Shown here: positions 15,585-39,514 of the stretch, piece after piece
Position numbering within the stretch: the first letter of the stretch is position 1
How the letters are laid out: every line of letters begins with the position of its first letter
Virus record (IMG/VR): IMGVR_UViG_3300013719_000006
Span: 12,652-76,651 of that record
Length of the DNA: 64,000 nt
Source: a virus
Taxonomy: Duplodnaviria; Caudoviricetes
Reading direction: 5' to 3' (one strand)
Notes under the pieces: generated by a model
The model's input: only the letters and a program-made list of their open reading frames with translations
What the model was told of the DNA's origin: nothing
Databases searched by the model: none
Position numbers and translations under genes: made by a program

Positions 15585-16487
15585 TTAAACCGGTAACTGG
15601 CCGCGCGCTTCGTCGAAAAAATGCTGCGCCAGAGGGGTTGCGCGTCCCGGTTCGGCAATCACCAGCGCCGCTTCGCGCGCCATCGGCGGCAGCGTAATCG
15701 GCCGCTGCTGTAATCCCTGCAGGGAAGCAGGCAGCAAATGGCCGACCGGTGAAACCAGCAATCCCAGCCCAACCTGCGCGCACTGCATCAGCTGCATCAC
15801 CGAGGCACTTTCGACAATCACCCGCGGTACCAGCGACGCTTCGCGAAACGCCATGTCGAGATAGCGGCGAAAGTAACGCGTCTGTTCGGCCAGACAGAGC
15901 GGCTGCTGCGCCAGTTCACTGAGCGTGAGCGGCTCACCAGAGATCAGATCGGGAAAATGATCGGGATGGAAGATCGCCTCAACCCCACGATCGGCCAGCA
16001 TTGCCGTCTGAAAATGGAGTTCGCGCAGCGTAGCCATCTCAAAAAAGCCAATGCCTACATCCACGGTGTGGCTGTTAAGCGCTTCCAGCAGCTGGTCGGC
16101 GCTCAGCACCGCGATCCGGTAATCAAGCTGCGGATAACGCGCCTGCACCGCCTTTAGCAACAGCGGCAACGCCACGCTGCACTGTGGCACCACCCCGACT
16201 CGCAGGGTGCCATTGACCCCATGTTTCAGCGACTCCACTTCCAGCTTTAGTCCCTGGTAAACCGAGACGATTTCCCGCGCCCAGGCCAGTACCCGATCGC
16301 CTTCCGGCGTAAAACCGGCAAAGTTATTGCTGCGATTAATCAGCGACAGGCCCAGTTCACGCTCCAGATTTTTCAGGCGCATCGAAAGGGTCGGCTGGGT
16401 GACAAAACTGGCTTCGGCGGCCCGGCCAAAATGGCGTTCGCGTTCGAGATTACACAGGTAAATTAATTGTTTGATGTCGATATTCTT
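15585..16487 (-). pseudogene. LysR-family regulator whose in-frame start is missing at the prophage 2 junction
   Basis: Frame reads KNIDIKQLIYLCNLERERHFGRAAEASFVTQPTLS (LysR HTH) but has an in-frame TAA at 16488-16490; nearest ATG (16494) is out of frame. Confidence 0.75.
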
Positions 16488-17232: not shown

Positions 17233-17248
17233 CTGTATGGATAAACAG
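17233..17248. promoter_or_regulatory. LexA (SOS) box
   Basis: CTGTATGGATAAACAG = CTG-N10-CAG. Confidence 0.85.
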
Positions 17249-17529: not shown

Positions 17530-18609
17530 TTGAAGAATATTTTTGGGGAGAGAATCTACACGCTTGACGCACTACGTGGTATAGCATCACTTTCAGTAGT
17601 ATTTTGGCACTGGAGGCATTTCTTCCATCTTGATAATGGAACATTCACCCTTTCCATGGAAAATCAGCCTTTTTACCAGGCATTTTCTATTCTTTATGGC
17701 TATGGCTTGCATGCGGTAGAGCTCTTCTTCGTCATATCCGGCTTTGTTTTTTTTCATCTTTATTATTCAAAGATTCAATCCAGAGCTGTAACTGCTAAAG
17801 AGTTTTTTGTAAAAAGGATAACCAGACTTTATCCACTTTTTATTTTAAGCTCTATCTTGGTAGGACTGCTTCAGTTCTTTTTCAAGCAAAATCACAATAG
17901 CTTCTTTGTATATCAACAAAATGATTTATATCATGCATTTTTAAACATTTTAATGATCCAGGCTTGGGGGTTCCAGCACGGATGGTCGTTTAACGCACCT
18001 AGCTGGTCAATCTCAATTGAGGTTCTTCTATACACCATTTTCTTCACTATCAGCTTAATATCAAAAAGACCATTAACAGTATCAATCTTTATTATAGTTT
18101 CATCCTACTATTTTTCTGATGTAAACCCCATGATAGCTAGCGGTATGTTTTGTTTTTACACTGGCGTTGTTGCTTATATTGCATGCGCCGCATTAATATC
18201 GCAGAGGGGAGCTTTGTTTTCTTTGGCGCTTTTTGCAATCTTATGCATCGCTTCCTGGAGCGTCATTTTTTCGTTTTACGTGAAAAACATTTACCTGATA
18301 GTTTCTATGGGATTCTTGCCACTAGTCTGCGCCTTAGCGTCTTTAAGCGCATACGCCCACGACTCAGGCAAAAGCCTTGAATGGCTGGGCAACATAAGCT
18401 TCTCCTCTTATCTGTTGCACTTCCCTTTGCAGATAGCTTTTGCGACATGCTGTGATTTAATGAATAAATCAAGAGACATATTCTATAGCCCATATATTTT
18501 TATCGCTTTCTGGTTGGTGCTTATTCCGATCAGCCTTGCTTCATTTTATTTTTTTGAAAAGCCCTCTCAGGAATATCTAAGGAAGGCGTTTGGAAAAGCT
18601 GGAAATTAA
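17530..18609 (+). CDS. Acyltransferase-3 (OafA-like) membrane O-acyltransferase, moron
   Basis: DALRGIAS..V.F.H, LFFVISGF, RITRLYP, WSISIE, GNISFSSYLLHFP, FEKP; AT-rich; opposite strand to tail genes. Confidence 0.88.
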   Translation: MKNIFGERIYTLDALRGIASLSVVFWHWRHFFHLDNGTFTLSMENQPFYQAFSILYGYGLHAVELFFVISGFVFFHLYYSKIQSRAVTAKEFFVKRITRLYPLFILSSILVGLLQFFFKQNHNSFFVYQQNDLYHAFLNILMIQAWGFQHGWSFNAPSWSISIEVLLYTIFFTISLISKRPLTVSIFIIVSSYYFSDVNPMIASGMFCFYTGVVAYIACAALISQRGALFSLALFAILCIASWSVIFSFYVKNIYLIVSMGFLPLVCALASLSAYAHDSGKSLEWLGNISFSSYLLHFPLQIAFATCCDLMNKSRDIFYSPYIFIAFWLVLIPISLASFYFFEKPSQEYLRKAFGKAGN

Positions 18610-32185: not shown

Positions 32186-32929
32186 TTACGAAGCAGTAAC
32201 CGTTACAGCCGTAGTTCCGGTAAAGTTACCGTCATTCGACTTAAATGTGATCGTCGCGGTGCCAGCGGCAACACCCGTAACCAGTCCGGTGCTGCTGACG
32301 GTTGCTTTCGTAGCATCTGAGGTTGTCCATGTGCCGGATTTATCTGTTGCGTCAGCAGGAAGGACAGTCGCCGTTAACTGGCGGGTAGCGCCAACGGCGA
32401 GTGAGGTTGTCGCAGGTGCAACAGTTACGCCTGTAGCGGGAACCGCTTCATCCGTATCAACAACCTGAATCGTTGATGCGTCAGCTACTTTAAATTCAGT
32501 AGAGAACGTCACAATGTCATTACTGCCGCCGTCTGAACTCAAGGCATTGATCAGCATGTACCCGATGAATGTTACTGCCCCAAACTCCATTCGAATCCAG
32601 ACTGTAGGCTGGCGAGCGGCTTGGATTTCCGTGTTGAAGTATTTGATCAGCCGGTACACGCCATACTGGTCAAGACGGTCATTACGACGCACCTCACCTT
32701 CAAATGAAATGGTCAGGTCGGCATTGGTAACAATGTTTTCGACATAGCCCTTCGTATCGTCCGCATCAGAGCTGACCGAGTTTGGGCTGAGATCGAACGA
32801 CTTAGTGGTGCCGGCAGCAAGCGCCATCCATTCGGACTCTTGCGGCAAGGTGTCAGCGCAGCCATCAGCAATTTCGAGCACAATCGCTCTGCCGAAAAGC
32901 TTCGTGTTGTCGGTCTGGCAGATAGCCAT
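32186..32929 (-). CDS. Major tail tube protein with C-terminal Ig-like domain
   Basis: VPATGVTVAPATTSLAVGAT Big-2 domain. Confidence 0.88.
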   Translation of the reverse strand: MAICQTDNTKLFGRAIVLEIADGCADTLPQESEWMALAAGTTKSFDLSPNSVSSDADDTKGYVENIVTNADLTISFEGEVRRNDRLDQYGVYRLIKYFNTEIQAARQPTVWIRMEFGAVTFIGYMLINALSSDGGSNDIVTFSTEFKVADASTIQVVDTDEAVPATGVTVAPATTSLAVGATRQLTATVLPADATDKSGTWTTSDATKATVSSTGLVTGVAAGTATITFKSNDGNFTGTTAVTVTAS

Positions 32930-32998
32930 AGGTGTAATTCCTCTTTCTTTAGGCAATAAAAAAACCCGCACTAGGCGGGCTTGTTTGTTAAACCATCG

Positions 32999-33547
32999 CT
33001 ATCTGCCATGGTTCTCGTGATATCCGTACTTTATTTCAGCTAATTTCCTGGCTGATACTGCCTCATCTAAGGTTGAGTAATGCCCAAGATTGACCTTTTT
33101 GGTTCCGTTGCTAATAAATGCGTAATACTTGCCGTTATCTTTGCGCTTATGGATACCGACGAAACCACTGGTGTTGTTATCGTATTTTTTCGCATTTCTC
33201 GTGTTCTCTTCATTGCTGACAACTCGGAGATTATCAATCCTATTGTCAGACCTGTCGCCGTTGATGTGGTCAACAAATCCATCAGGATGAGTCCCATAAT
33301 GCAATGCCCATACAATGCGATGCACAATGTAGGTTTTACCCATCAACCTAGTGAGAAGATACTTACGATTATTAATGGATCCTGCTTCTTTACCGGCATT
33401 GTCGCGATTGAAATTAACGTAAGCCGCTTTCGATTTGAAGTGTCGCTCAGGCCTGTTTTTCCATAGGACAATGCCAGTCTTTGCATCATATAAAAAGCAT
33501 TCACTCAGGAATTCAATTGGTAATTCTTTGTCTTTATCGATGTGCAT
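32999..33547 (-). CDS. HNH endonuclease with AP2 domain
   Basis: VHRIVW...VDHINGDRSDNRIDNLR; NNTSGFVGI; LGHY...EAVSAR. Confidence 0.88.
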   Translation of the reverse strand: MHIDKDKELPIEFLSECFLYDAKTGIVLWKNRPERHFKSKAAYVNFNRDNAGKEAGSINNRKYLLTRLMGKTYIVHRIVWALHYGTHPDGFVDHINGDRSDNRIDNLRVVSNEENTRNAKKYDNNTSGFVGIHKRKDNGKYYAFISNGTKKVNLGHYSTLDEAVSARKLAEIKYGYHENHGR

Positions 33548-33579
33548 TACAACCTCGTCAAAGTTGCTCGTCGTTTGGT

Positions 33580-33631
33580 TGGTGTGGCAACCCGGCGACG
33601 AAACCGGGCTTTCGGGGATCAGTCTAGCCAC
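33580..33631 (-). ncRNA. C4/CI-type tRNA-like antisense RNA element A
   Basis: GTGGC/GCCAC stem plus ACCA; GGCTAG-N7-CCCGAAA; hairpin loop TTTCGTCG complementary to downstream boxes. Confidence 0.6.
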
Positions 33632-33646
33632 TGTTTAATTATACAG
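33631..33646. promoter_or_regulatory. LexA box overlapping a TATAAT -10 element on the minus strand
   Basis: CTGTTTAATTATACAG (minus strand CTGTATAATTAAACAG). Confidence 0.8.
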
Positions 33647-33647
33647 T

Positions 33648-34037
33648 CTATTCGCCGTAAGAACAGGCAAATTGCAGGCGCCAGACCATACGCCCCTCTG
33701 CCGTGGGGATTGGTGATGGTATGCCACCCATATTGGTGATTTGGCCGACGCAGGTGTCGCTGATAGGGTTTTGCTGCACGTAGTCGATGATGGCCTGCAC
33801 GTCAGACTCTGACTTAGCGTAATCCCCTGCAGACTTGCCGGTGATCAGGTCAACAAGCACGTAATGGTCGGAGCCGATATCTCTGTCTACCGGAGTGCCG
33901 CCATTCGGCCGGAACACGATGAACCGCTGCTTCAGGTCACCCGTATCAGTCCAGATTAGTGACTGAACCGTGTATCCGGAAGTCAGGCCAGCACCGATAA
34001 GAAGATTTTTAACGCGCTGATGCATCGGAGGATTCAC
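33648..34037 (-). CDS. Tail completion/terminator protein
   Basis: Position in neck module; TAEGRMVWRLQF. Confidence 0.7.
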   Translation of the reverse strand: MNPPMHQRVKNLLIGAGLTSGYTVQSLIWTDTGDLKQRFIVFRPNGGTPVDRDIGSDHYVLVDLITGKSAGDYAKSESDVQAIIDYVQQNPISDTCVGQITNMGGIPSPIPTAEGRMVWRLQFACSYGE

Positions 34038-38642: not shown

Positions 38643-39410
38643 TTACTCTGGTATATACTTGCTGCCCTTTACGGCATTTTCTTCTTTCCATAAAGGTTGA
38701 AGATTACTTAAGGCGTTAATTACCTTTAAATCATCAACACCTTCTGCAATGAAAGCCGATATTGGCTTGCGATGGTCTATATCCCAATCGCCACGGTTTT
38801 CCCATGTCATTCCTGGCTGGAACTGCAACTGAATTCTTTCGCGTAACTCATCCGATGTATAACCAATTGCCGATTTTACGTTACCGCTATTCCATGCCAA
38901 GGCGTTATTTATCTCGTCATAAGCCTTTCTTCGTAGCTTGTAGTTGGAATCGTGTTTCAAGACCGCATCGTAATAAGCCCGATTTTTAGCCCGTCCAACC
39001 CGGCTGCGCTTTTGCGCATTACGGCGCATTTTAGCTTCTTCGCTAATAATGGCTGACTGCCCTTTACGCGCCCTCAAAGACAAACATTCCGTACACTGCC
39101 TAGTAGATACAAGTCGTGGGGCGAGATGACCATACTTACAAGGAGTGCCAGTAAAGTAGTGTGACTTGCCTAGATTGACAGCGGTATTCTTCTTTACAGC
39201 AGAAGATTTATTTTGGGGCACACCATCAACCTTTCGCATCATGCGCTTTCTCTCTTCGAGGCATTTGCAGCACTGCTGGGTTGATACGAGTCGATCAGCA
39301 AGGTGTCCGCGCTTGCATGGCACGTGGCTACGATAATGCTTCTCACCGCTTTTTCTGGCATTTGCCAAAGACTGCTTCTGAAGCAACTTCAAATCTTCAG
39401 TAGAATTCAT
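38643..39410 (-). CDS. HNH-like endonuclease with two Cys/His repeats
   Basis: PCKRGH...QQCCKC and PCKYGH...RQCTEC; C-terminal WDIDHRKP...NLQPLWKEEN..KG. Confidence 0.7.
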   Translation of the reverse strand: MNSTEDLKLLQKQSLANARKSGEKHYRSHVPCKRGHLADRLVSTQQCCKCLEERKRMMRKVDGVPQNKSSAVKKNTAVNLGKSHYFTGTPCKYGHLAPRLVSTRQCTECLSLRARKGQSAIISEEAKMRRNAQKRSRVGRAKNRAYYDAVLKHDSNYKLRRKAYDEINNALAWNSGNVKSAIGYTSDELRERIQLQFQPGMTWENRGDWDIDHRKPISAFIAEGVDDLKVINALSNLQPLWKEENAVKGSKYIPE

Positions 39411-39439: not shown

Positions 39440-39494
39440 TGGTGTCCGGCGCGCAGTCTGTGTTCTGCGTTTTCGGGAGCTACCCTAGCCGGAC
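39440..39494 (-). ncRNA. C4/CI-type tRNA-like antisense RNA element B
   Basis: GTCCGGC/GCCGGAC stem plus ACCA; GGCTAG-N7-CCCGAAA; loop AACACAGA complementary to downstream TCTGTG and CTGTG. Confidence 0.6.
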
Positions 39495-39514
39495 CTCATT
39501 ATTTTACCTTGTAG

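What the first reader, a model, noticed from the sequence alone, without database searches (positions are those of the whole stretch)
33545..33646. LexA-gated, C4-like tRNA-mimic RNA controlling an HNH-AP2 nuclease in the tail module
Seen, minus strand: a LexA box overlapping TATAAT (33631-33646); then GTGGC-TAG-ACTGATC-CCCGAAAG-[CCCGG-TTTCGTCG-CCGGG]-TT-GCCAC-ACCA; then CGACGA and GACGAG boxes, the second overlapping the GAGG SD of the HNH gene. The hairpin loop is complementary to both boxes. Knowledge: P1/P7 C4 and P4 CI RNAs are RNase P-processed tRNA-like antisense RNAs whose loops pair with repeated downstream sites, normally controlling antirepressor or kil genes. Inference: an HNH gene has acquired a double safety (SOS repression plus antisense RNA), so it is expressed on DNA damage independently of late transcription.
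Basis: partly seen in the sequence, partly recalled or inferred. Interest (0 to 1): 0.7.

Follow-up and report, generated by a model that had tools for sequence, protein, structure and literature searches.

The report
Programmable leader RNA before phage nuclease
A 700-bp selfish nuclease cassette in this prophage's tail genes has its own promoter, terminator and folded leader RNA (a relative of the orphan Rfam motif int-alpA) whose loop co-varies with two sites at the ribosome-binding region, so it probably throttles nuclease translation; the DNA-damage (LexA) switch is lineage-specific.

Summary

- **Family.** The RNA is not a C4 member and not tRNA-like. Rfam C4 and c4-like models give no hit even at E≤10, ARAGORN finds no tRNA, and the 3' ACCA is ACCC or something else in relatives. 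It is a below-threshold relative of Rfam int-alpA (16.2 bits, gathering score 35.8) and shares its junction with members that pass the threshold.
- **Structure.** In 61 distinct relatives both stems co-vary (97% of cells paired).
- **Loop and boxes.** In 43 loop variants the loop matches its own two downstream boxes (0 of 10,000 permutations as good). Box 2 lies over the Shine-Dalgarno sequence.
- **Cassette.** Stop codon, -10, RNA, boxes, HNH gene and terminator form a 700-bp insert that is absent from 72 of 75 related tail modules.
- **Second copy.** A second leader with an orthogonal loop sits at 39494-39444, before an endonuclease VII-like gene.
- **LexA.** The box is a perfect consensus over the -10 and +1, but the strict form occurs in only 2 of 74 family promoters, so SOS gating is plausible, lineage-specific and untested.

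Earlier notes of this scan reached the same int-alpA leader reading on other DNA.

The parts
32951..33650 (-). Whole insertion cassette (about 700 bp): stop codon, -10, leader RNA, boxes, HNH gene, terminator
   Evidence: 72 of 75 related tail modules have the tail-terminator and major-tail genes adjacent. Only 3 carry the 676-nt gap. Alignment to empty sites places the left junction after TACGGCGAA, and the insert replaces AGTTAATC.
33631..33646 (-). LexA-type box CTGTATAATTAAACAG overlapping the -10 and +1
   Evidence: Sequence. The pattern occurs 3 times in the window against 0.87 expected. Among 74 distinct family promoters the strict box is in 2 and CTG-N10-CAG at this position in 6.
33638..33643 (-). 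-10 hexamer TATAAT, ending 6 nt before G1 of the RNA
   Evidence: It is invariant in the subgroup while the neighbouring bases vary. Family-wide, 22 of 76 promoters match at 5/6 or better at a gap of exactly 6 nt, against 0-3 at other offsets; 19 perfect TATAAT against 0-1 in shifted windows. There is no conserved -35.
33584..33631 (-). int-alpA-type RNA scaffold. P1 GUGGC/GCCAC (33631-33627 with 33588-33584); junction UAG...CGAAAG; P2 CCCGG/CCGGG (33608-33604 with 33595-33591)
   Evidence: Own covariance models score 73.9 and 63.9 bits. Rfam int-alpA scores 16.2 bits with the same layout. Stem covariation: 97.1% of cells paired, score 0.79 against 0.18 shuffled.
33596..33603 (-). P2 loop UUUCGUCG, the antisense (guide) loop
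   Evidence: Complementary to both boxes. Loops and boxes co-vary across the family.
33567..33573 (-). Box 1 CGACGAG (UGACGAG in some relatives, which keeps pairing as G-U)
33553..33560 (-). Box 2 UGACGAGG containing the SD GAGG. It lies in or next to a local hairpin, CAAC(UUU)/(GAG)GUUG, 33566-33549
32999..33547 (-). HNH endonuclease gene, 182 aa
   Evidence: PF13392 HNH_3, E 1.3e-18. phrog_99, E 7e-62. Nearest solved structure is I-HmuI, 1U3E, E 1.3e-3.
32955..32982 (-). Intrinsic terminator (AAGCCCGC-CTAGT-GCGGGTTT plus T-run) closing the cassette
   Evidence: An equivalent terminator is present in all 10 tail-module cassettes examined, in two sequence versions.
33648..34037 (-). Upstream tail terminator gene. 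Its stop codon TAG is supplied by the insert
   Evidence: PF23842, E 2e-48. Empty-site comparison.
32186..32929 (-). Downstream major tail protein gene. The true start is ATG 32929, not the GTG at 32971 inside the terminator
   Evidence: phrog_853, E 1e-93. Alignment with empty sites.
39444..39494 (-). Second int-alpA-type leader. -10 TAAAAT at 39506-39501; P1 GUCCGGC/GCCGGAC; loop AACACAGA at 39464-39457; box 1 UCUGUG at 39437-39432; box 2 CUGUGAGG at 39424-39417; ATG at 39410
   Evidence: Rfam int-alpA 32.6 bits, E 2e-5. Sequence. Orthogonal to copy 1.
38643..39410 (-). Cargo of the second cassette: 255-aa endonuclease VII-like protein, followed by a terminator (about 38630-38603)
   Evidence: phrog_1035, E 9e-14. 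Terminator sequence.

Best explanation
The element is the regulatory head of a mobile, free-standing HNH homing-endonuclease cassette. The cassette is inserted between the tail-terminator and major-tail genes of an enterobacterial prophage.

The cassette carries a portable promoter that relies on the -10 alone. Transcription probably starts at G1 of a 48-nt folded RNA that is a divergent relative of the Rfam motif int-alpA. The conserved junction and the two stems hold out an 8-nt loop. That loop base-pairs with two sites in the same leader: box 1 just after the RNA, and box 2, which covers the Shine-Dalgarno sequence of the HNH gene.

Pairing with box 2 occludes the ribosome-binding site and keeps nuclease synthesis low. 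This would apply to any transcript that carries the leader, whether from the cassette promoter or from late-operon read-through. Box 1 is either a second operator or a competing parking site that sets the level. A terminator after the HNH gene closes the unit.

In this lineage a consensus LexA operator lies over the -10 and +1, so the cassette promoter is probably shut in the lysogen and opened by DNA damage.

Shown: the sequence features, the RNA fold (by covariation), loop/box co-evolution, the stereotyped geometry, and the presence/absence polymorphism of the cassette.

Inferred: the transcription start, repression as the outcome, cis action, and LexA binding.
For: - **Selection on the non-coding element.** 95% identity against roughly 60-65% in the flanks (my count from the alignment), and near invariance across cassettes whose HNH proteins are only 47-95% identical.
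- **Homology to int-alpA.** The junction CUAGGCUGAUCCCCGAA is identical to that of RNAs passing the Rfam int-alpA gathering score. Copy 2 in the same window scores 32.6 bits.
- **Fold.** 61 distinct sequences, 97.1% of cells paired, 184 double-sided changes, covariation 0.79 against 0.18 for shuffles (0 of 500 as high) and 0.13 or less in slid registers.
- **Loop/box co-evolution.** Longest Watson-Crick helix of a loop with its own leader is 5.77, against 4.36 +/- 0.13 for permuted pairs (0 of 10,000 as high). G-U-compatible changes occur, such as box 1 C to U opposite the loop G.
- **Geometry.** Box 1 at -20 to -28, box 2 at -8 to -16, and the start codon 31-40 nt after P1. Box 2 lies in a hairpin loop in 38 of 58 leaders.
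- **Promoter.** Sharp -10 peak 6 nt upstream of G1.
- **Cassette.**
- **Local targets only.** No other tandem box sites in the window.
- **Orthogonality of the two copies.** -9.0 and -7.5 kcal/mol for own pairs, -1.9 and -1.4 for crossed pairs.
- **Precedent.** RBS-sequestering RNA structures limit translation of T4 and Aeh1 homing-endonuclease genes (PMC2988022).
Against: - No expression data exist. The transcription start, RNA ends and direction of regulation are all unmeasured.
- The whole-leader minimum-free-energy fold is not exceptional (z = -1.5) and prefers a loop/box 1 helix over P1/P2.
- The promoter has no -35 element and may be weak.
- In this subgroup a local hairpin could mask the SD without any help from the loop.
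- The invariance of the junction in my family sample is partly due to the search pattern used.
- The covariation counts were made on a model-fitted alignment.
- LexA half-sites are the most variable positions of the otherwise invariant region.
Confidence: 0.7

Rival explanations
1. First reader's model. The RNA is a C4/P4-CI-like, tRNA-mimicking RNA that is cut out of the transcript (by RNase P and others), accumulates, and acts in trans as an immunity-type antisense repressor on both boxes.
For: - A conserved scaffold with highly diversified, mutually orthogonal loops suggests selection against cross-talk, which only matters for trans action.
- Two repeated target sites, one at the RBS, recall P1 a2/b2 and P4 seqA/seqC (established knowledge, from memory).
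- Some cargo genes are antirepressors (AntA, P22_AR_N, Rha).
- One subgroup has a U-run right after P1, which could release a discrete small RNA.
Against: - No C4, c4-like or isrK hit at E<=10.
- C4 and int-alpA occur as separate elements in L103.
- No tRNA-like call, and the CCA is not conserved.
- The -10 places the 5' end at G1, leaving nothing for RNase P to remove from promoter-derived transcripts.
- This subgroup has no terminator or U-run between the RNA and the boxes.
- There is a single antisense loop, where C4 has two segments.
Confidence: 0.18
2. The LexA box is fortuitous or vestigial. The cassette promoter would then be constitutive (a moron expressed in lysogens) or irrelevant, with HNH made only from late read-through transcripts.
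For: - The strict box occurs in 2 of 74 family promoters.
- Sister cassettes with CCG..TAG, CGG..CAG and GAG..AAG have kept everything else.
- The half-sites are the most variable bases of the conserved block.
- Copy 2 in the same phage has no box.
Against: - Perfect CTGT-N8-ACAG with an A/T-only spacer and an extended dyad ACTGT..ACAGT, exactly over the -10 and +1. The chance of this in one register is about 1.5e-5.
- CTG and CAG are retained in 6 of 9 distinct promoters of the ~180-aa HNH subgroup.
- The hosts are Enterobacterales, which use this LexA consensus (consensus from established knowledge).
Confidence: 0.4
3. The conserved block works at the DNA or protein level. The boxes and the loop sequence would be repeats bound by a protein (for example HNH autoregulation or a homing-site remnant), and the conservation would simply reflect recent horizontal transfer.
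For: - The boxes are direct repeats, and the loop is their inverted copy at the DNA level.
- Cassettes are mobile, so some of the identity is due to recency.
Against: - Stems co-vary with G-U intermediates, for example U-G 12 times at one P1 position.
- The relation between loop and boxes is complementarity that is kept while the sequence changes completely.
- Box 2 always coincides with the SD at a fixed distance from the start codon.
- The leader is far more conserved than the adjoining HNH coding sequence.
Confidence: 0.05

Closest known systems
int-alpA RNA motif (Rfam RF02996; typed 'Gene; sRNA'; by my recollection from the Weinberg et al. 2017 survey, PMC5737381, whose supplement is not held)
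   Same: - Three-way-junction layout: P1, then CUAG, a small middle arm, CGAA(A), the P2 hairpin, then P1'.
- The 17-nt junction is identical to that of members passing the gathering score.
- The Rfam model's 3' tail AgGG is complementary to its loop CCuUu, so it corresponds to box 1.
- It occurs in mobile elements and phages.
   Different: - Copy 1 scores only 16.2 bits against the gathering score of 35.8.
- P1 is 5 bp where the model has 8, and the middle arm is vestigial.
- The loop is not anti-SD-like (ACCUCU) but gene-specific (UUUCGUCG), with matching re-programmed boxes.
- It sits in front of an HNH gene in a tail operon, not between int and alpA.
- A LexA box overlies its promoter.
- I found no published function for int-alpA.
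P1/P7 C4 antisense RNA and P4 CI RNA (Rfam RF01695, clan CL00128)
   Same: The logic is the same. A structured RNA is encoded just upstream of its target in the same transcript, its loop sequence is complementary to repeated downstream sites, and one of those sites covers the RBS. Some family members control antirepressor genes.
   Different: - No sequence or structure match to the C4 model.
- One antisense loop, not the two segments a'/b'.
- No evidence of RNase P processing or tRNA-likeness.
- C4 and int-alpA-type RNAs co-occur as separate elements.
RBS-sequestering hairpins of T4-type homing endonuclease genes (I-TevI/II/III, segB, Aeh1 mobE; PMC2988022)
   Same: Translation of a selfish nuclease gene embedded in a polycistronic phage operon is limited by RNA structure at the Shine-Dalgarno sequence.
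   Different: The T4 cases are simple local hairpins, relieved by a proximal late promoter that starts inside the structure. Here a conserved, portable scaffold presents a programmable loop to two sites, and the cassette promoter transcribes the whole scaffold.
Morons of lambdoid phages (promoter-gene-terminator units inserted between late genes; established knowledge, from memory)
   Same: A self-contained unit with its own -10 and its own intrinsic terminator, inserted between two tail genes and polymorphic among close relatives.
   Different: The cargo is a homing-type nuclease and not a lysogenic-conversion gene. The unit also carries an RNA regulator and, in this lineage, a LexA operator.

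Membership tests
C4 antisense RNA (RF01695) | Scores at or above the Rfam gathering score (45 bits) on the C4 covariance model | tested here: not met
   No C4, c4-like or isrK hit even at E<=10 on 33450-33750, and none at gathering thresholds in the window. The same library detects a true C4 at 60.7 bits in L103.
C4 antisense RNA (RF01695) | Two antisense segments (a', b') pairing with a2/b2 downstream, with b2 at the RBS | tested here: not met
   A single 8-nt loop pairs with two near-identical boxes. Only the 'site at the RBS' part of the feature is met.
C4 antisense RNA (RF01695) | Maturation by RNase P from a longer precursor; tRNA-like acceptor end | not testable with these tools
   Indirect evidence is against it: ARAGORN finds nothing, the ACCA is not conserved, and the -10 puts the 5' end at G1.
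int-alpA RNA (RF02996) | Scores at or above the Rfam gathering score (35.8 bits) | tested here: not met
   Copy 1 scores 16.2 bits, E 0.57. Copy 2 scores 32.6 bits, E 2e-5.
int-alpA RNA (RF02996) | P1 / CUAG / middle arm / CGAA(A) / P2 / P1' topology, with both long stems supported by covariation | tested here: met
   The alignment to the Rfam model has the same layout. In 61 distinct relatives 97.1% of cells are paired, with a covariation score of 0.79 against 0.18 shuffled.
int-alpA RNA (RF02996) | Homology link to accepted members | tested here: met
   RNAs with the identical CUAGGCUGAUCCCCGAA junction pass the gathering score: L032-L035 at 38-51 bits, and 7 of 20 representative loci. My model R1, built on the window's subgroup, finds them at 37-51 bits.
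SOS (LexA) operator of Gammaproteobacteria | CTGT-N8-ACAG consensus placed over the promoter | tested here: met
   CTGTATAATTAAACAG at 33646-33631 covers the -10 and +1. The pattern occurs 3 times in the window against 0.87 expected.
SOS (LexA) operator of Gammaproteobacteria | Conserved in orthologous promoters | tested here: inconclusive
   CTG-N10-CAG is kept in 6 of 9 distinct promoters of the ~180-aa HNH subgroup and lost in the 310-aa subgroup. The strict box is in 2 of 74 family promoters.
SOS (LexA) operator of Gammaproteobacteria | Bound by LexA and derepressed by DNA damage | not testable with these tools
   Needs a gel-shift assay and reporter assays.
Free-standing homing endonuclease cassette | Presence/absence polymorphism at one precise intergenic site among close relatives | tested here: met
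   72 of 75 related loci are empty, including ones with 97-99% identical tail-terminator protein, and 3 are filled. The junctions are defined.
Free-standing homing endonuclease cassette | Encodes a homing-type nuclease | tested here: met
   HNH_3, phrog_99, and I-HmuI as nearest solved structure.
Free-standing homing endonuclease cassette | The nuclease cuts the empty site and drives gene conversion | not testable with these tools
   Needs cleavage and co-infection assays.
HNH-AP2 architecture | AP2 DNA-binding domain C-terminal to the HNH domain | tested here: not met
   No AP2 hit for the whole protein at E<=0.1 or for the C-terminal 65 aa at E<=10. AP2 is detected in 4 other cargo proteins of the family.

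The most novel reading that the evidence does not exclude
int-alpA-type RNAs may be a widespread, portable riboregulator platform. A conserved junction scaffold presents a freely re-programmable guide loop, and each mobile nuclease, antirepressor or transposase cassette carries its own orthogonal loop/box pair. The released or leader-borne RNA would also act in trans, silencing incoming copies of the same cassette as a form of cassette-specific immunity. In this lineage the LexA operator would time nuclease expression, and hence homing, to the RecA-rich SOS state.
Probability: 0.2. Interest if true: 0.8.

Novelty: new variant of a known kind. Interest (0 to 1): 0.55.

Why it matters
The result gives an orphan Rfam motif (int-alpA) a concrete, testable mechanism. 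It also shows that the family is much wider than its model captures: 13 of 20 representative loci, and this window's copy 1, fall below the gathering score.

Selfish nuclease genes that lodge inside essential late operons appear to bring a complete control kit with them: a promoter that needs only a -10, a scaffold RNA with a programmable loop, paired target boxes and a terminator. That helps explain how such insertions are tolerated.

The conserved scaffold with an exchangeable 6-10-nt loop is a natural design for orthogonal translational repressors.

The system should be accessible to experiment. Cronobacter phage ES2 is an isolated phage with the same cassette, and reporter fusions should work in E. 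coli. The LexA overlay, if functional, would link a homing endonuclease to the SOS response.

Tried and rejected
- **Known RNA families.** Rfam at gathering thresholds on the window and on 9 + 20 related loci gave no family for the window's subgroup. C4, c4-2, c4-a1b1 and isrK gave no hit at E<=10.
- **tRNA mimicry.** ARAGORN found none.
- **Similarity searches.** BLAST of the element against E. coli complete genomes and plasmids gave no match.
- **Folding alone.** Thermodynamic folding of the whole leader was uninformative (z = -1.5). It is blind to pseudoknots and prefers the loop/box 1 helix.
- **-35 element.** None is conserved.
- **AP2 domain.** Not detected.
- **Trans targets.** None convincing elsewhere in the window.
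- **Q-type antiterminator.** I looked for one to explain read-through of the cassette terminator. A PF03589 ORF exists in the provirus record, but outside the window and beyond the tail end, so I could not assign it to this late operon.
- **Box 1 versus box 2 energies across the family.** My fixed zones split the boxes of the int-alpA-proper subgroup, so the family-wide tally is not reliable. Only the per-locus values are used.
- **Literature.** I found no functional study of int-alpA, and the supplement of the discovery paper is not held.
Full report
**Observation**

- The tail-terminator gene (33648-34037; PF23842) ends in TAG.
- The 16-mer CTGTATAATTAAACAG (33646-33631) is a perfect CTGT-N8-ACAG box and contains TATAAT (33643-33638).
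- The RNA occupies 33631-33584: GUGGC-UAG-ACUGAUC-CCCGAAAG-[CCCGG-UUUCGUCG-CCGGG]-UU-GCCAC.
- Box 1 CGACGAG lies at 33573-33567 and box 2 UGACGAGG at 33560-33553. Box 2 includes the GAGG Shine-Dalgarno sequence.
- The ATG at 33547 opens a 182-aa HNH_3 protein.
- The loop pairs with box 1 at -9.6 kcal/mol and with box 2 at -8.1 kcal/mol. The 48-nt RNA alone folds into the two stems.

**The non-coding block is under selection of its own**

- In Cronobacter phage ES2 the same 99 nt lie at the same place, between the tail-terminator homologue and an 'endonuclease' gene followed by the major tail gene.
- They are 95% identical, while the flanking coding DNA is only roughly 60-65% identical by my count from the alignment.
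- An exact-core scan found 14 more loci in IMG/VR and in Buttiauxella, Pantoea and Superficieibacter genomes.
- In these loci GTGGC through ATG is almost invariant, although the HNH proteins are only 47-95% identical.
- The variable bases are the spacer between P1 and box 1, and the bases flanking TATAAT.

**It is a cassette**

- I fetched 80 related tail modules, with terminator proteins 68-100% identical. In 72 of the 75 that hold both genes, the terminator and major-tail genes are adjacent (gap about -22 to +30 nt). This includes relatives at 97-99% identity.
- Only 3 have the 676-nt gap holding the RNA and the HNH gene.
- Against empty sites, the insert (about 33650-32951) starts right after TACGGCGAA, supplies the stop codon for the upstream gene, and replaces AGTTAATC.
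- It ends in an intrinsic terminator (32982-32962 plus T-run).
- All 10 tail-module cassettes have such a terminator, in two different sequence versions.
- The major tail gene really starts at ATG 32929.

**What the RNA is**

- Rfam finds nothing at gathering thresholds.
- In permissive mode there is no C4, c4-like or isrK hit. The best match is int-alpA (RF02996) at 16.2 bits against a gathering score of 35.8, with the same layout.
- ARAGORN sees no tRNA.
- Scanning IMG/VR with only the 5' part of the RNA found loci with the same scaffold but different inner hairpins.
- A covariance model built on these (R1) found further members in 6 of 151 Enterobacteriaceae genomes. Four of them are accepted int-alpA RNAs at 38-51 bits and carry the identical junction CUAGGCUGAUCCCCGAA.
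Of 20 representatives, 7 pass the int-alpA threshold and 13 do not. One locus (L103) also has a separate true C4 RNA 2 kb away.
- The window's RNA is therefore a divergent, unrecognised branch of int-alpA and is distinct from C4.

**Fold**

On 90 matches (61 distinct), P1 and P2 are paired in 97.1% of cells, and 184 cells have changes on both sides. The covariation score is 0.79, against 0.18 for shuffles (0 of 500 as high) and 0.13 or less for slid registers. The alignment is model-fitted, which favours the structure, but the range of pair types is wide (GC, AU, CG, UA and UG at most positions).

**Loop and boxes co-evolve**

Each loop's complement recurs twice downstream:

| Loop | Box 1 | Box 2 |
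|---|---|---|
| UUGACCG | CGGUCAG | GGUCAG |
| UUACGCCUAU | AUAGGCG | AGGCG |
| CCGCUAG | CUAGCG | CUAGCGAGG |
| ACUGUCC | GGACAG | GGACAG |
| AACACAGA | UCUGUG | CUGUGAGG |

- For 43 distinct loops, the longest Watson-Crick helix with the RNA's own leader averages 5.77. Permuted pairings average 4.36 +/- 0.13, with 0 of 10,000 as high.
- The geometry is stereotyped: box 1 at -20 to -28, box 2 at -8 to -16, and the start codon 31-40 nt after P1.
- Box 2 lies in the apical loop of a small hairpin in 38 of 58 leaders, which suggests a loop-loop contact. In the window's subgroup that stem can extend and partly mask the SD by itself.
- Box 1 varies C/U opposite the loop G, which is an RNA-compatible change.

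**Promoter and LexA**

- A -10-like hexamer sits at a sharply fixed distance. 22 of 76 distinct promoters match TATAAT at 5/6 or better exactly 6 nt before P1, against 0-3 at any other offset. There are 19 perfect TATAAT against 0-1 in shifted windows.
- There is no conserved -35. That fits a portable promoter, because the cassette brings only about 7 nt upstream of the -10.
- The LexA box is a perfect consensus over the -10 and +1. However, the strict form is in only 2 of 74 family promoters, and CTG-N10-CAG at that position in 6.
- All of these are in the ~180-aa HNH tail subgroup. The 310-aa subgroup has CCG..TAG, CGG..CAG or GAG..AAG.
- SOS gating is therefore a lineage-specific overlay. 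I put the chance that it is functional at about 0.55.

**Cargo**

The 67 downstream ORFs include HNH_3 (11), AP2 (4), AntA, P22 antirepressor and Rha, TnpB, endonuclease VII, VapE/primase, helicases and exonucleases. Pfam finds no AP2 domain in the window's own protein.

**A second copy in the window**

- At 39494-39444 (minus strand) there is a -10 TAAAAT, then 6 nt, then P1 GUCCGGC/GCCGGAC, CUAG, CGAAAA and P2 CGCAG-AACACAGA-CUGCG.
- Box 1 UCUGUG and box 2 CUGUGAGG follow, with box 2 in an AAACC/GGUUU hairpin. The ATG is at 39410.
- It scores 32.6 bits on int-alpA.
- It precedes an endonuclease VII-like gene (phrog_1035) that lies after the head-morphogenesis gene. It ends in a terminator followed by the same ATTGCCT as cassette 1.
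- It has no LexA box.
- The two loops are orthogonal: own pairs are -9.0 and -7.5 kcal/mol, crossed pairs -1.9 and -1.4.
- No other tandem box sites for loop 1 exist in the window.

**Mechanism**

- Most likely (0.7), the leader's loop pairs with box 2 and occludes the ribosome-binding site on any transcript that carries it. Box 1 acts as a second operator or as a competing parking site.
- The cis/trans question is open. Loop diversification and orthogonality hint at trans action. The missing terminator between RNA and boxes in this subgroup, together with the predicted start at G1, favour a leader.
- T4-type homing endonuclease genes are likewise limited by RBS-sequestering structures (PMC2988022), but by simple local hairpins.

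**Earlier notes of this scan**

Notes read, after I had formed this reading, describe int-alpA-type leaders before phage nucleases on other DNA, with the same 'parking site or RBS' idea. They agree with my reading. I tested the claims independently here and do not count the notes as evidence.

**Novelty**

This is a new variant of a known but functionally unstudied motif. What is specific to this window:
- the re-programmed, non-anti-SD loop;
- the tail-operon homing cassette with defined junctions;
- two orthogonal copies in one phage;
- the LexA operator.

Noticed in passing
window 39444-39506 (-) and ORF 38643-39410 (-): A second int-alpA-type leader (32.6 bits, just under the Rfam threshold) with a different loop (AACACAGA). 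It precedes an endonuclease VII-like gene inserted after the head-morphogenesis gene, has its own terminator and has no LexA box.
   Followed up: yes
window 32955-32951 and 38610-38603 (-); also L019, L004-L015: Cassettes with different cargo share not only the 5' scaffold but also a 3' end: terminator T-run followed by ATTGCC(T). The conserved ends might matter for cassette mobility or recombination.
   Followed up: partly
window 17233-17248 and 15882-15897 (+): Two more CTGT-N8-ACAG matches. CTGTATGGATAAACAG at 17233 looks like a good LexA box. It lies about 280 nt upstream of an Acyl_transf_3 gene (17530-18609, +), next to the tail-fibre assembly gene and a LysR gene. It could be an SOS-controlled moron or a host flank.
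   Followed up: partly
window 32929 vs 32971 (-): The mechanical ORF call for the major tail gene starts at a GTG inside the cassette terminator. Comparison with empty sites shows the real start is ATG 32929, with SD AAGAGGAA.
   Followed up: yes
L046, L047, L050, L064, L066, L069, L075, L079: A subgroup (P1 CUGGC/GCCAG) has a hairpin GCCTG..CAGGC just upstream and a U-run right after P1. There the scaffold may act as a terminator or attenuator, or be released as a discrete small RNA. Some of these have a long box 1 (11 nt) and a site over the start codon.
   Followed up: no
L033, L035, L062, L073, L076 and others (accepted int-alpA loci): Repeated GTAGAC motifs lie immediately upstream of the -10-like AAGAAT. 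They are probably binding sites for a regulator of these satellite or island promoters.
   Followed up: no
L017:5953-7351 (-): The same scaffold (loop UUGACCG, boxes CGGUCAG and GGUCAG) precedes a 439-aa ORF. Its N-terminus looks TnpB/OrfB-like by eye, and the only OrfB_IS605 / Cas12f1-like TNB hit among the 67 cargo ORFs probably belongs to it; the per-member assignment was not checked. The leader may therefore also serve transposon nucleases.
   Followed up: partly
L103 2691-2756 and 4888-4976: One element carries both an int-alpA RNA (44.3 bits) and a genuine C4 RNA (60.7 bits) 2 kb apart. This is direct evidence that the two are separate families that can work side by side.
   Followed up: partly
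L164, L165, L169, L200, L202, L210 (about 80-100 nt upstream of distant HNH homologues): Related phages lacking the tail-site cassette carry a 41-47% identical HNH gene at another head-tail position. It is preceded by a divergent scaffold (middle arm GCCGGCCAGU or GGUAGCUCC), its own -10 and its own loop/box pair.
   Followed up: partly
G000:C1:8578-9264 (-), outside the window: A 300-aa open frame with two PF03589 (Antiterm) matches lies in the provirus record beyond the tail end. It is unclear whether it belongs to this prophage's late control.
   Followed up: no
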